Positions 10,320-11,170 of a stretch of 64,000 nt of DNA are shown here, one piece after another (the stretch's first letter is position 1; every line of letters begins with the position of its first letter). A program made the translations under genes and the position numbers. The DNA is from a virus. The stretch lies in IMG/VR virus record IMGVR_UViG_3300006098_000001. One strand, given 5' to 3'. The notes under the pieces are model-generated. The model was not told where the DNA came from and did not search any database. It saw only the letters and a program-made list of their open reading frames with translations.

Positions 10320-11170
10320 ATCGTTTTCGTTACTGTATTTTTACGTGCCAGTTGAAAACTGTTAATAAAAGTCGCAATGCACGAGCCACGTAGGCCATTG
10401 CCGTTTTGATAGGCTCGGCAACCTCTATATAAGGCCGTTTTATTTTAACGGTGACGGTGCACCCCATCATTCAACCAATTAAGAGAGGGTTGATTCTCTC
10501 GACAATAACTGTCGATTAAGGAGTCAAGCTCCACGTTAATCTGATTAATCTTTAACGAAACAGCCTCTTTCTTATCTGTCATACCTATTTCTTTTGCATT
10601 CTCTGAGCACGTGCTCTCTTGAACACCGAGGTGGGTAATTATGCTGTATTTCGAAGCCCTACGTGAGCCGTAATCAGATTTTATAAAAGAAGCATTTTAC
10701 AGATGTATCTCCGTATGTTTATAGGGCTGGGCGCTGATTTAACAATATCTAGCCGATTTCAAGAGGTGATCAACCCCTCTAGCGCACTTGTTCATCGGGT
10801 ATCCAACATGTCTCGTCCCGGGAAGCCCACACTTCCAGTGTAAGAGACTATATCTTCAAATACTTCCCGCCATTAAATGACTTGCAATCTTATGTTTGTA
10901 TTATTCAGGGTGTAGATTACTAGATCACCCGAACCCGCAACCTGAGAATTAAACCCAGCATTAACTTAGGCAATATCTGCATCGCAGGTAGTCGCACACG
11001 CAACCATAACAATAAGAAGCGTGGCATCAATCACATTACGAGCATTAGAAACTCCTCCAGTTGTGAGTAGGATACCTCGTATAAATCACATTACTGCCAT
11101 TTATACTCAAGCGCTTCAACCGACATACCTGTTGCCGGTTTTCCTATTATACATATCCATATAACAGAAA
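10320..11170 (-). ncRNA. candidate large structured ncRNA (about 850 nt; GOLLD/ROOL class is one possibility)
   Basis: No credible ORF. Many nested helices, e.g. 10382-87/10412-17, 10483-87/10496-500, 10655-60/10723-28, 10731-35/10781-85, 10762-66/10776-80, 10821-25/10832-36. Embedded between tRNAs. Strand inferred from the island promoter. Confidence 0.35.

What the first reader, a model, noticed from the sequence alone, without database searches (positions are those of the whole stretch)
10320..11170. 850-nt hairpin-dense, ORF-free segment: candidate giant ornate ncRNA (GOLLD/ROOL-like)
This is the largest tRNA-free interval of the island. It contains many nested and long-range helices (coordinates in the feature entry) and visibly higher GC than flanking genes. 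It also holds an internal degenerate tRNA-like stem-loop (10921-10980). GOLLD (about 800 nt) and ROOL (about 600 nt) RNAs are established as Lactobacillales/phage-associated, located next to tRNAs, and GOLLD can enclose a tRNA. I cannot recall their consensus well enough to match by eye.
Basis: inference. Interest (0 to 1): 0.72.

Follow-up and report, generated by a model that had tools for sequence, protein, structure and literature searches.

The report
Modular tRNA-island spacer RNAs, not ROOL
The 850-base gene-free stretch is real non-coding, structured sequence inside the tRNA/tmRNA island of a Limosilactobacillus reuteri phage-plasmid. It is a patchwork of small conserved RNA hairpin modules and tRNA-like elements that closely related genomes gain, lose and swap, not one giant GOLLD or ROOL RNA.

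Summary
**Observation: mostly holds.**
- 10320-11170 lies in a 4-kb ORF-free island (8049-12099).
- GC is 0.418, against 0.355 for the whole window.
- It folds somewhat better than shuffled sequence.

**GOLLD/ROOL reading: fails.** Rfam gives no hit even at E<=10, in the window or in a relative. The same ROOL model scores 294 bits in the syntenic island of a distant relative (L016).

**What is there: a chain of modules on the minus strand.**
- Trailer hairpins of the upstream tRNA.
- A tRNA-derived minihelix: a 9-bp acceptor-like stem plus a T arm. Some relatives carry a true tRNA in this slot.
- A conserved 9-bp stem closing a hypervariable insert of 75-160 nt.
- Three covarying hairpins.
- A promoter-like motif.

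Just outside the interval lie a 52-nt mini-tRNA and a universally conserved 130-nt core.

**Mosaicism.** Close relatives delete or replace single modules, and some insert protein genes in this region.

**Most likely mechanism (inferred).** The modules are transcribed together with the tRNAs and cut out by RNase P and RNase Z at tRNA and tRNA-like punctuation. What the released RNAs do is unknown.

**Caveats.** The covariation rests on few lineages. A new large modular RNA standing in for ROOL is not excluded (about 0.15).

The parts
12030..12058 (-). Best sigma-70-like promoter match at the upstream edge of the island (TTGACA-17-TATTAT). It is the presumed start of the polycistronic stable-RNA transcript.
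   Evidence: 11 of 12 consensus positions. A consensus match only, with no experimental support.
11171..11253 (-). An 83-nt tRNA that bounds the interval upstream in RNA sense. It has a class-II-like body with anticodon CCA and no encoded CCA end.
   Evidence: Rfam tRNA 56.7 bits. ARAGORN calls Trp(cca). The trailer starts with U.
11021..11170 (-). The tRNA trailer, with three stable hairpins: a 13-bp stem starting 1 nt after the discriminator, an 8-bp stem, and an 8+3-bp stem with a GUAA loop. Found in clade A only. In L004 and L036 it is replaced by about 1.1 kb; in L036 that stretch carries two annotated ORFs.
   Evidence: MFE z = -4.33, 0 of 200 shuffles as good. The inner stem GCA/UGU becomes GUA/UAC in L021, and other changes keep pairing. 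Replacement.
10991..11004 (-). Hairpin Pa (GYUGC-GUGU-GCGRC), the 5' element of module M1.
   Evidence: U-A becomes C-G between the two clades (helix 1).
10933..10989 (-). tRNA-derived minihelix resembling a plant-mitochondrial 't-element'. A 9-bp acceptor-like stem (10981-10989 with 10933-10941) stacks on a T arm (10942-10958). There is no D arm or anticodon arm. It is allelic to a true tRNA in L018, L022 and L036.
   Evidence: 99.5% of cells paired, 5 pairs changed on both sides, 0 of 500 shuffles as good, and all slid controls collapse. CM R1 scores 135 bits in the window and 109 bits in clade B. A tRNA occupies the same slot in relatives.
10908..10930 (-). Hairpin Pc (GGGUG...CACCC). It follows the minihelix here, and in relatives it follows the true tRNA.
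10858..10866 (-). 5' strand of stem LR1 (GAAGUAUUU).
   Evidence: It pairs 9 of 9 with 10689-10697 in every haplotype except L018 (7 of 9). L036 lacks it. Changes are A-U to G-U and U-G to C-G, on one side only.
10698..10857 (-). Hypervariable insert closed by LR1. The 160-nt version occurs only in the window, L021 and L035. Other genomes carry unrelated inserts of 75, 94 or 105-108 nt, shared across clades.
   Evidence: Its own folding is no better than shuffles (z = +0.74). The weak Intron_gpI hit (15.9 bits against a gathering score of 50) overlaps its 5' edge.
10689..10697 (-). 3' strand of LR1 (AAAUGCUUC), inside a 21-25-nt motif (GUAAAAUGCUUCUUUUAUAAA) that is identical in both clades.
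   Evidence: A promoter-like match overlaps it (10694-10721), so its role is ambiguous.
10541..10688 (-). Clade-A-specific spacer with an optional 15-nt palindromic hairpin. Clade B and L023 carry a different, longer sequence here.
   Evidence: z = -0.41.
10484..10532 (-). Three consecutive short hairpins joined by UUAAU-type linkers: H1 (10520-10532), H2 (10500-10514) and H3 (10484-10499).
   Evidence: Compensatory series: GGAG/CUCC becomes GGAA/UUCC; CGACA/UGUCG becomes CGGCG/CGCCG and CAGCG/CGCUG; AGAG/CUCU becomes GGAG/CUCC and GGAA/UUCC. The overlapping 45-aa ORF is frameshifted in L007 and has lost its start codon in L004.
10372..10483 (-). Optional hairpin-rich block of about 110 nt, present only in the window, L001, L018 and L022.
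   Evidence: z = -1.7.
10337..10365 (-). Promoter-like motif (TTAACA-17-AAAAAT). Its core, UAACAGUUUUCAAC, is conserved in both clades.
   Evidence: Consensus match only.
10249..10300 (-). A 52-nt mini-tRNA just outside the finding: acceptor stem GCCUUGU/ACAAGGC plus a canonical T arm (UUGGG-UUCGAUC-CCCAA), with no anticodon arm.
   Evidence: Found by the T-arm/acceptor scan. The acceptor covaries: C-G, U-G and U-A at pair 2; U-A, U-G and C-G at pair 4. There is a weak mascRNA-family match to its homologue in L024 (21 bits, E 0.34).
10122..10248 (-). Variable domain V1: a trailer hairpin plus three hairpins, one with a GAAA loop. At least three unrelated alternatives occupy this slot in other genomes.
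   Evidence: CUACCA/UGGUAG becomes CUACUA/UAGUAG.
9990..10121 (-). Core module M3c, present in every clade A and clade B genome that spans this position (L005's locus ends before it). It has hairpin S1, the three-tier hairpin S2 and hairpin S3. The S1 and S2 loops are perfectly complementary over 8 nt.
   Evidence: 99.2% paired, 4 pairs changed on both sides. CM R2 scores 154-165 bits in L. reuteri elements and nothing significant in L010, L015, L016, L017 or L041. Loop complementarity was reached by 24 of 20000 shuffles.

Best explanation
The interval is the middle of a polycistronic stable-RNA operon (tRNAs, tmRNA and accessory RNAs) of a roughly 130-kb Limosilactobacillus reuteri phage-plasmid. 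It is a chain of small, separately evolving structured modules, all read on the minus strand, rather than one gene.

**The modules, in RNA order**
- Trailer hairpins of the upstream tRNA.
- A tRNA-derived minihelix that keeps only the acceptor-like stem and the T arm.
- A conserved stem that closes a swappable hypervariable insert.
- Three short covarying hairpins.
- An optional hairpin block and a promoter-like motif.
- Then, just outside the interval, a 52-nt mini-tRNA, a variable domain and a conserved 130-nt core.

**Proposed mechanism (inferred, not shown)**
- The island is transcribed from the promoter-like site at 12058, and perhaps from internal ones.
- RNase P cuts 5' of each tRNA or tRNA-like minihelix.
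- RNase Z cuts after the discriminator. None of the tRNAs encodes CCA, and every trailer starts with U.
- The minihelices would therefore act as punctuation, as plant-mitochondrial t-elements or mascRNA do.
- The products would be discrete structured RNAs of 100-350 nt whose hairpins protect them from exonucleases.

**Origin of the mosaic.** It would come from recombination among co-resident phage-plasmids, possibly helped by the HNH endonuclease gene next to the island. What the released RNAs do is unknown.
For: **Shown: replicon and synteny**
- The window is a phage-like replicon (RecD, DnaB, portal).
- Its close relatives are L. reuteri plasmids of 129-138 kb (PMC4667477 describes the 138.5-kb plasmid with tRNA genes and phage remnants).
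- The gene order RecD, PnuC, small ORFs, RNA island, dNK is kept down to 48-54% RecD identity.

**Shown: non-coding and structured**
- Non-coding.
- The conserved structures contain several G-U pairs that would be A-C mismatches on the plus strand. The strand therefore matches the tRNAs.
- Local structures are supported by compensatory changes: the M1 minihelix and its flanking hairpins, H1-H3, trailer hairpin 3, the mini-tRNA acceptor stem and M3c.

**Shown: modules come and go independently**
- L005 lacks 10280-10537 but keeps M1; its locus ends before M3c.
- L018, L022 and L036 have a true tRNA in place of the minihelix, yet keep Pc, LR1, H1-H3 and M3c.
- The LR1 insert comes in at least four unrelated versions, shared across clades.
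- L004 and L036 hold about 1.1 kb in place of 11008-11172; in L036 it carries two annotated ORFs on opposite strands.

**Shown: features bearing on processing**
- All island tRNAs lack an encoded CCA, and their trailers begin with U.
- About 14 T-arm motifs occur in 4 kb, and only 7 of them belong to the tRNAs and tmRNA that Rfam calls.
- No terminator-like site lies on the minus strand within 10320-11170.

**Established knowledge.** tRNA-like t-elements direct RNase P and RNase Z cleavage (PMC1920247).
Against: - There are no expression or RNA-end data, so co-transcription, processing and stability are all inferred.
- The covariation rests on two clades plus recombinants, so few independent events underlie the counts.
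- The tool documentation warns that related sequences can beat the shuffle control without any real structure.
- LR1 closing a variable insert, the conserved order of modules over about 1 kb in clade B, and the loop-loop complementarity in M3c would also fit domains of one larger RNA.
- A ROOL RNA sits in the same island in L016, which hints that this locus hosts large RNAs.
- The 160-nt insert and 10551-10700 fold no better than shuffles.
- Some T-arm fragments may simply be debris.
Confidence: 0.55

Rival explanations
1. A new class of large modular RNA of about 1 kb, spanning roughly 11010-9990. It would fill the role that ROOL fills in related elements. The tRNA or minihelix slot, the LR1 insert and V1 would be tolerated variable domains, as in the GOLLD linker that can hold tRNAs.
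For: - The roughly 1-kb region is colinear between the two L. reuteri clades (nhmmer E about 1e-97).
- It is nearly invariant in organisation within clade B (94-100% identity).
- ROOL sits in the syntenic island of L016.
- A conserved stem closes a variable insert.
- M3c has an 8-nt loop-loop complementarity.
- GOLLD is known to tolerate tRNAs in a linker (PMC12286853).
Against: - Viable-looking close relatives lose single modules independently, and L004 and L036 carry about 1.1 kb (two annotated ORFs in L036) inside the region.
- A consensus fold of nine genomes shows no multi-stem junction architecture, only local hairpins plus LR1.
- M1 and M3c are absent from the more distant family members.
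- The 88-90% identity of 9999-10371 between clades, against 54% amino-acid identity of RecD, looks like recent exchange rather than deep conservation.
Confidence: 0.16
2. Debris with little function. The region would consist of remnants of tRNA genes and recombination scars left by rapid turnover of the tRNA array, with hairpins that serve only as generic trailers or spacers.
For: - The array is clearly in flux. Closely related genomes differ in which tRNAs they carry at corresponding slots (Trp, Phe, Asn).
- The minihelix slot holds a real tRNA in L018, L022 and L036.
- The window's 98-nt tRNA-like element at 9732-9829 is not recognised by Rfam, although its homologue in L014 is.
- L005 carries a 258-nt deletion.
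- Two segments fold no better than shuffles.
Against: - The minihelix, H1-H3, the mini-tRNA and M3c all keep their pairing through compensatory changes, both between and within clades.
- The non-tRNA interior of the minihelix is shared by both clades. The loss of the tRNA arms therefore predates their divergence, while the helices kept being maintained afterwards.
Confidence: 0.17
3. A divergent member of GOLLD or ROOL that the Rfam models miss.
For: Context only: a Lactobacillales phage-like element, next to tRNAs, of the right overall size (PMC5737381, PMC12286853).
Against: - No hit at E<=10 with permissive filters on 1.25-kb, 2.2-kb and 5.5-kb stretches.
- The ROOL model scores 294 bits in relative L016, which serves as a positive control.
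- nhmmer finds no similarity between the window region and the L016 ROOL.
Confidence: 0.02
4. Small protein-coding genes: the 45-47-aa ORFs at 10445-10582(-), 10330-10470(-), 10703-10843(+) and 11021-11164(+).
For: The ORFs exist. The product of 10445-10582 looks helical.
Against: - No Pfam or PHROG match at E<=0.1.
- 10445-10582 is cut to 19 aa in L007, has ACG in place of ATG in L004, and has a different C-terminus in L020. It overlaps hairpins that covary at the RNA level.
- The few substitutions in 11021-11164 all change the amino acid.
- Two of the ORFs lie in optional blocks.
Confidence: 0.03
5. A group I intron or other mobile ribozyme inserted near the tRNA-like element.
For: A weak Intron_gpI match at 10827-10973(-), E 0.33. 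The polymorphic 160-nt insert and a neighbouring HNH endonuclease gene are also suggestive.
Against: - The score is 15.9 bits against a gathering score of 50.
- The match boundaries do not coincide with the polymorphic block (10698-10857).
- The flanks do not rebuild a tRNA or an ORF.
- The insert folds no better than shuffles.
Confidence: 0.02

Closest known systems
ROOL RNA (Rfam RF03087)
   Same: Same kind of neighbourhood: a tRNA island of a Lactobacillaceae phage-like element. A true ROOL abuts a tRNA in the syntenic island of relative L016.
   Different: No covariance-model or sequence similarity. No multi-junction consensus fold. The region is mosaic among near-identical genomes.
GOLLD RNA (Rfam RF01998)
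   Same: About 800 nt, next to tRNAs in phages, and able to enclose a tRNA in a variable linker (PMC12286853). Here one slot holds either a tRNA or a tRNA-like minihelix.
   Different: No match to the model at E<=10. No counterpart of the universally conserved 3' domain was detected. There was no positive control for GOLLD in this phage family.
Plant-mitochondrial t-elements and the mascRNA of MALAT1 (tRNA-like processing signals)
   Same: An acceptor-like stem plus a T arm with a (near-)canonical T loop and no working anticodon arm, embedded in a longer transcript. Such elements direct RNase P and RNase Z cuts (PMC1920247). There is a weak mascRNA-family match to the mini-tRNA homologue.
   Different: Here the setting is a bacterial phage-plasmid. 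Cleavage is untested. The M1 minihelix has a 9-bp rather than a 7-bp stem and an unusual T loop (UUUAAUU).
Stable 'species 1 and 2' RNAs (rnaC, rnaD) in the phage T4 tRNA gene cluster. Recalled from my own knowledge, not checked here.
   Same: Small stable RNAs of unknown function, encoded among phage tRNA genes and matured from the same precursors. The T4 tRNA region is also shaped by a homing endonuclease (SegB).
   Different: No sequence relationship was tested. T4 infects E. coli. The modules here are lineage-specific to L. reuteri elements.
tRNA-like domain of tmRNA
   Same: An acceptor stem plus T arm without an anticodon arm. A true tmRNA lies in the same island (8570-8947).
   Different: The minihelices are contiguous elements of 52-57 nt. 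They have no mRNA-like part and no G3:U70-type alanine identity pair (sequence).

Membership tests
ROOL (RF03087) | Match to the Rfam covariance model at or above the gathering score of 99.1 bits. | tested here: not met
   No ROOL match at gathering score or at E<=10, nor in clade-B locus L024. Positive control: 294.1 bits in L016.
ROOL (RF03087) | [quoted passage not shown] | tested here: not met
   The RNAalifold consensus of nine genomes gives 29 helices. Nearly all are local, and there are no nested junction domains. Power is limited by the low diversity.
ROOL / GOLLD | Located in phages or prophages, often beside tRNA genes. | tested here: met
   The interval lies in the tRNA/tmRNA island of a phage-plasmid.
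GOLLD (RF01998) | Match to the Rfam covariance model, including the universally conserved 3' region. | tested here: not met
   No match at E<=10. No positive control was available in this family.
ROOL / GOLLD | Homo-oligomeric nanocage assembly (PMC12286853). | not testable with these tools
   Needs native gels or cryo-EM.
tRNA (RF00005) | A cloverleaf with D arm, anticodon arm, T arm and 7-bp acceptor stem. | tested here: not met
   No tRNA match at E<=10 at 10933-10989 or 10249-10300. Only the acceptor-like stem and the T arm are present.
t-element / tRNA-like processing signal | An acceptor-like stem stacked on a T arm carrying a GGTTCRANYCC-like motif. | tested here: met
   The mini-tRNA has GGGTTCGATCCCC. 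The M1 minihelix has a 5-bp T stem with loop UUUAAUU and a 9-bp stem, both covarying.
t-element / tRNA-like processing signal | RNA ends generated by RNase P or RNase Z coincide with the edges of the element. | not testable with these tools
   No transcript data. This needs 5'/3' end mapping or in vitro cleavage assays.
Group I intron (RF00028) | Match to the model at or above 50 bits, with exon flanks that rebuild a gene. | tested here: not met
   15.9 bits, E 0.33. The flanks do not form a tRNA or an ORF.

The most novel reading that the evidence does not exclude
The colinear stretch of about 1 kb from roughly 11010 to 9990 would be a previously undescribed large, modular phage RNA. It would stand in for ROOL in the tRNA island of L. 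reuteri phage-plasmids. It would be built from a tRNA or tRNA-like entry domain, a stem that displays a swappable hypervariable insert, and a constant 130-nt core with a loop-loop kiss. The exchangeable inserts could carry specificity, for example against competing phages or host factors.
Probability: 0.15. Interest if true: 0.7.

Novelty: new variant of a known kind. Interest (0 to 1): 0.4.

Why it matters
- It removes a false GOLLD/ROOL candidate. The positive control in a relative shows that covariance models can be trusted in this phage family.
- It shows that the long 'spacers' of a phage-plasmid tRNA island are not empty. They hold selected structures, including armless tRNA-like minihelices allelic to real tRNAs, and a conserved stem carrying interchangeable inserts.
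- If the minihelices are processing punctuation, this would extend the t-element/mascRNA principle to bacterial mobile elements. It would also explain how accessory RNAs can ride on tRNA maturation.
- If the modules turn out to be one RNA, it would be a third large phage RNA type in the ROOL/GOLLD niche.
- L. reuteri strains carrying these plasmids can be cultured, so the question is directly testable.

Tried and rejected
- **Rfam.** Scans at gathering score and at E<=10 on the window, on sub-windows and on 20 related loci gave only tRNAs, tmRNA, one ROOL (L016) and a Transposase-1 RNA.
- **Isolate phage genomes.** blastn of the island matched only tRNA- and tmRNA-sized pieces.
- **ARAGORN with introns and low thresholds**. 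It gave implausible intron-containing tRNAs (for example 'Leu(cag)' at 10933-10967). I rejected these in favour of the minihelix reading.
- **Small ORFs.** No family matches, and they are not conserved.
- **Group I intron.** Rejected on score and boundaries.
- **Hammerhead-like core.** A 'GAUGA...GAAA' pattern in the 160-nt insert, seen by eye, does not fit the hammerhead consensus register, and Rfam found no ribozyme family.
- **Long-range helix LR2** (10652-10662 with 10294-10305). RNAalifold predicted it. I set it aside because it is rich in G-U pairs and excludes the mini-tRNA acceptor stem, which has true compensatory changes.
- **AT-rich conserved motifs as promoters.** Only consensus matches are available. 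The motif at 10676-10700 is better explained as the 3' strand of LR1.
- **Collection scans.** IMG/VR, metagenome and GTDB scans with exact patterns yielded only 11 extra loci, all close relatives.
- **Look-ups that missed the island.** Those for P0099, P0104 and P0114 ended at or before PnuC. CP049301.1 is not in the collections.
- **The 160-nt insert.** Its third copy (L035, 90% identical) has too few substitutions to test a fold.
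Full report
**1. Where the interval sits**

The window is a phage-like replicon. It encodes a RecD-type helicase, DnaB, a portal protein, a thymidylate/deoxynucleoside kinase, PnuC and an HNH endonuclease. Isolate phages are only about 30% identical at the protein level.

Its close relatives are circular plasmids of 129-138 kb in Limosilactobacillus reuteri:
- LN906635.1 (p53608_1) of strain ATCC 53608;
- NZ_CP102426.1;
- NZ_CP065541.1.

The 138.5-kb plasmid was described as carrying phage remnants, nucleotide-metabolism genes, an NMN transporter and tRNA genes, at 35.8% GC (PMC4667477). 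The window is 35.5% GC.

The finding lies inside a 4,051-nt stretch, 8049-12099, with no ORF of 70 aa or more. This is the longest such stretch in the window. All recognised RNA genes there are on the minus strand:
- a tmRNA at 8570-8947;
- six tRNAs called by Rfam: 8175-8239, 9010-9083, 9456-9549, 11171-11253, 11409-11477 and 11862-11934.

The best promoter-like site of the region, TTGACA-17-TATTAT at 12058-12030, lies just upstream of the first tRNA on that strand.

**2. Checking the observation**

- The interval has no ORF longer than 47 aa.
- GC is 0.418, reached by only 2.1% of equal-sized windows.
- As a whole it folds 2.5 to 2.9 standard deviations better than 20 shuffles, on either strand.
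- By segment the signal is uneven:
  - the tRNA trailer 11021-11170 is very stable (z = -4.3);
  - 10901-11010 and 10440-10545 are near -2;
  - 10706-10855 (+0.7) and 10551-10700 (-0.4) are no better than chance.
- The 'degenerate tRNA-like stem-loop' is real: a T-arm-like hairpin at 10942-10958.

**3. The GOLLD/ROOL test**

- Rfam 15 gave no GOLLD, ROOL or other large-RNA match at gathering score over the window.
- With permissive filters at E<=10 it also gave none over 7500-13000, over 9950-11200, or over the homologous region of a relative from a second clade (L024).
- The best non-tRNA matches were noise. One was a 15.9-bit Intron_gpI match, against a gathering score of 50.
- The test is informative because the same library finds a full-length ROOL at 294 bits (L016 20697-21275). 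That ROOL lies in the syntenic island of a more distant member of the family (RecD 48% identical), directly abutting a tRNA.
- nhmmer finds no similarity between that ROOL and the window.

Membership in ROOL is therefore rejected. GOLLD is rejected with less certainty, because there was no positive control for it.

**4. Comparative anatomy**

*Loci collected.* I gathered about 25 related loci from several sources:
- IMG/VR;
- metagenomes;
- GTDB genomes;
- PLSDB;
- contigs encoding RecD homologues.

*Two clades carry homologous sequence.*
- Clade A has RecD 97-98% identical to the window.
- Clade B has RecD about 54% identical.
- nhmmer aligns window 11023-9995 colinearly with about 1 kb of every clade B locus, at E about 1e-97.
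- The gene order RecD, PnuC, small ORFs, RNA island, deoxynucleoside kinase holds across the whole family.

*Within clade A the interval is a mosaic.* Blocks shared at 90-100% identity alternate with blocks that are absent or replaced:
- 11008-11172 is replaced in L004 and L036 by about 1.1 kb. In L036 that stretch carries two annotated protein genes on opposite strands, one with a DUF2513 domain.
- 10698-10857 occurs only in the window, L021 and L035.
- 10372-10483 occurs only in the window, L001, L018 and L022.
- L005 has lost 10280-10537.

L023 carries clade-B-type sequence in one block, and the versions of the variable insert are shared between clades. Window 9999-10371 is 88-90% identical to clade B although the proteins are about 54% identical. 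Together these point to exchange by recombination among co-circulating elements.

**5. The modules, in RNA (minus-strand) order**

(a) **11170-11021, the tRNA trailer.** It has three strong hairpins. In the third, the inner stem GCA/UGU becomes GUA/UAC in L021.

(b) **Module M1, 11010-10901.** It has three parts:
- hairpin Pa;
- a minihelix, in which a 9-bp acceptor-like stem (10989-10981 with 10941-10933) stacks on the T arm (10958-10942);
- hairpin Pc.

On seven distinct sequences, 99.5% of cells pair and five pairs change on both sides. No shuffle reaches the observed score, and all slid controls collapse. The short interior between the acceptor-like 5' strand and the T arm is shared by both clades. 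The tRNA arms were therefore lost before the clades diverged, and the helices were maintained afterwards. A covariance model of M1 also hits L018 and L022. There the minihelix slot holds a complete tRNA followed by the same Pc hairpin, and L036 is the same. The minihelix is thus allelic to, and probably derived from, a tRNA.

(c) **Stem LR1, 10866-10858 with 10697-10689.** It pairs 9 of 9 in every haplotype except L018 (7 of 9), and L036 lacks it. It closes an insert of 75, 94, 105-108 or 160 nt of unrelated sequence. All changes are one-sided and keep the pairing. The 25-nt AT-rich motif that is identical in both clades is the 3' strand of this stem.

(d) **10688-10541.** A clade-specific spacer.

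(e) **H1-H3, 10532-10484.** Three short hairpins with several compensatory series. The 45-aa ORF over them is frameshifted in L007 and has lost its start codon in L004.

(f) **An optional hairpin block, then a promoter-like motif** at 10365-10337, conserved in both clades.

(g) **Outside the finding:**
- the mini-tRNA at 10300-10249, whose acceptor stem runs through C-G, U-G and U-A at one pair and U-A, U-G and C-G at another;
- a variable domain with at least three alternative versions;
- the core M3c at 10121-9990. It is present in every clade A and B genome that spans this position, with 99.2% of cells paired and four pairs changed on both sides. Its two hairpin loops are perfectly complementary over 8 nt, which 24 of 20,000 shuffles reach.

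M3c and M1 are not found in the more distant family members L010, L015, L016, L017 and L041.

**6. One RNA or many?**

*For separate units:*
- Modules are lost or replaced independently in genomes that otherwise look intact.
- About 1.1 kb, with annotated protein genes in L036, can sit inside the region.
- A true tRNA can replace the minihelix.
- A consensus fold of nine genomes is essentially a string of local hairpins.

*For integration:*
- The order is conserved over about 1 kb in clade B.
- A stem closes a variable insert.
- M3c has a candidate loop-loop interaction.
- ROOL sits in the same locus in a relative.

A predicted 11-bp long-range helix (10662-10652 with 10305-10294) is rich in G-U pairs and excludes the covarying mini-tRNA acceptor stem, so I do not rely on it. 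I judge the modular reading more likely, about 0.55 against 0.16, but the sequence data cannot settle it.

**7. Mechanism**

*Shown:*
- The structures are on the tRNA strand. Their G-U pairs would be mismatches on the other strand.
- No terminator-like site interrupts the minus strand in the interval.
- None of the island's tRNAs nor the tmRNA encodes CCA, and every trailer begins with U.
- About 14 T-arm motifs occur in 4 kb, and only seven belong to called genes.
- Each tRNA or tRNA-like element that I inspected is followed within a few nucleotides by a hairpin.

*Inferred:*
- The island is transcribed as long precursors.
- RNase P and RNase Z cut at tRNAs and at the minihelices. The acceptor plus T-arm helix is the part of a tRNA these enzymes need, and t-elements in plant mitochondria work this way (PMC1920247).
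- The intervening structured RNAs are released.

I do not know their function. The swappable insert displayed on a conserved stem, and the constant core, suggest a specificity part and a scaffold part. That is speculation.

**8. Novelty and verdict**

The specific claim of a giant ornate GOLLD/ROOL-like RNA is not supported. What is there is a lineage-specific set of structured RNA modules and tRNA-like minihelices in a phage-plasmid tRNA island. It is a new variant of known kinds, namely tRNA-like processing signals and stable RNAs in phage tRNA clusters.

Limits of the analysis:
- There are few independent lineages.
- E-values from the short calibration of my models are rough.
- There are no expression data.

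Interest is moderate, at 0.4. The main value lies in the clean negative for ROOL/GOLLD, the positive control in a relative, and testable tRNA-like punctuation in a bacterium that can be cultured.

Noticed in passing
window 11171-11253 (-); L004 18626-18710: The 83-85-nt tRNA has a class-II, tRNA-Tyr-like body with a long variable arm, but anticodon CCA and discriminator G. The tRNA at the same position in L004 reads GTA (Tyr) with discriminator A. This may be a Tyr-to-Trp identity switch, or replacement by a paralogue.
   Followed up: partly
window 9456-9549 (-): tRNA-Ile(UAU) is 94 nt long with a variable arm of about 22 nt, which is unusual for an isoleucine tRNA. It is conserved in clade B at 77-89% identity.
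   Followed up: no
window 9732-9829 (-): A 98-nt tRNA-like element with a good acceptor stem and T arm but an aberrant interior. Rfam misses it, and ARAGORN calls it only at a relaxed threshold. Its homologue in L014 (17308-17396) is a recognised 89-nt tRNA. The window's 5' half (9781-9820) has only one weak, partial match among the loci compared.
   Followed up: partly
window 8532-8548, 9843-9859, 9911-9927, about 11590-11610, 11719-11859 (-): Further orphan T-arm motifs outside called tRNAs. One is a 141-nt element with acceptor GCGAAG/CUUCGC and a T arm framing an AT-rich interior. The island holds about 14 T arms for 7 called genes.
   Followed up: partly
window 8570-8947 (-): A plasmid- or phage-borne tmRNA (75 bits) with tag peptide ANNHRVTALAA, kept in the clade A relatives scanned whose loci reach it (L001, L020, L034, L035, L036).
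   Followed up: no
L016 20697-21275: A full-length ROOL RNA (294 bits) in the syntenic tRNA island of a related element of the Lactobacillus taiwanensis type. Its 3' end overlaps the next tRNA by a few bases.
   Followed up: partly
L010 16286-17629; L041 3503-4807 (L. mucosae pLM1): TnpB (IS605 OrfB-type RNA-guided endonuclease) genes are inserted inside the same RNA island in two other family members.
   Followed up: no
window 7335-8048 (-): An HNH homing-endonuclease gene lies directly next to the island. It is a plausible driver of the cassette mosaicism, as in the tRNA regions of T4 and T5 (recalled from my own knowledge).
   Followed up: no
window 8172-8427: This stretch (a tRNA plus 190 nt upstream) is 96% identical to L010, although L010's RecD is only 55% identical. 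This is another sign of recent module exchange between distant family members.
   Followed up: no
window 36184-41983: A second ORF-poor region of about 6 kb holds only ORFs of 108 aa or fewer and a few short AT-rich tandem repeats. It lies just before the point where gene orientation switches. Rfam found nothing there at gathering score.
   Followed up: partly
window 10171-10184 and 9440-9453 (-): The same hairpin, GCCUAGUUAUAGGC within a 20-nt repeat that is 95% identical, occurs in the variable domain V1 and again immediately 3' of tRNA-Ile.
   Followed up: no
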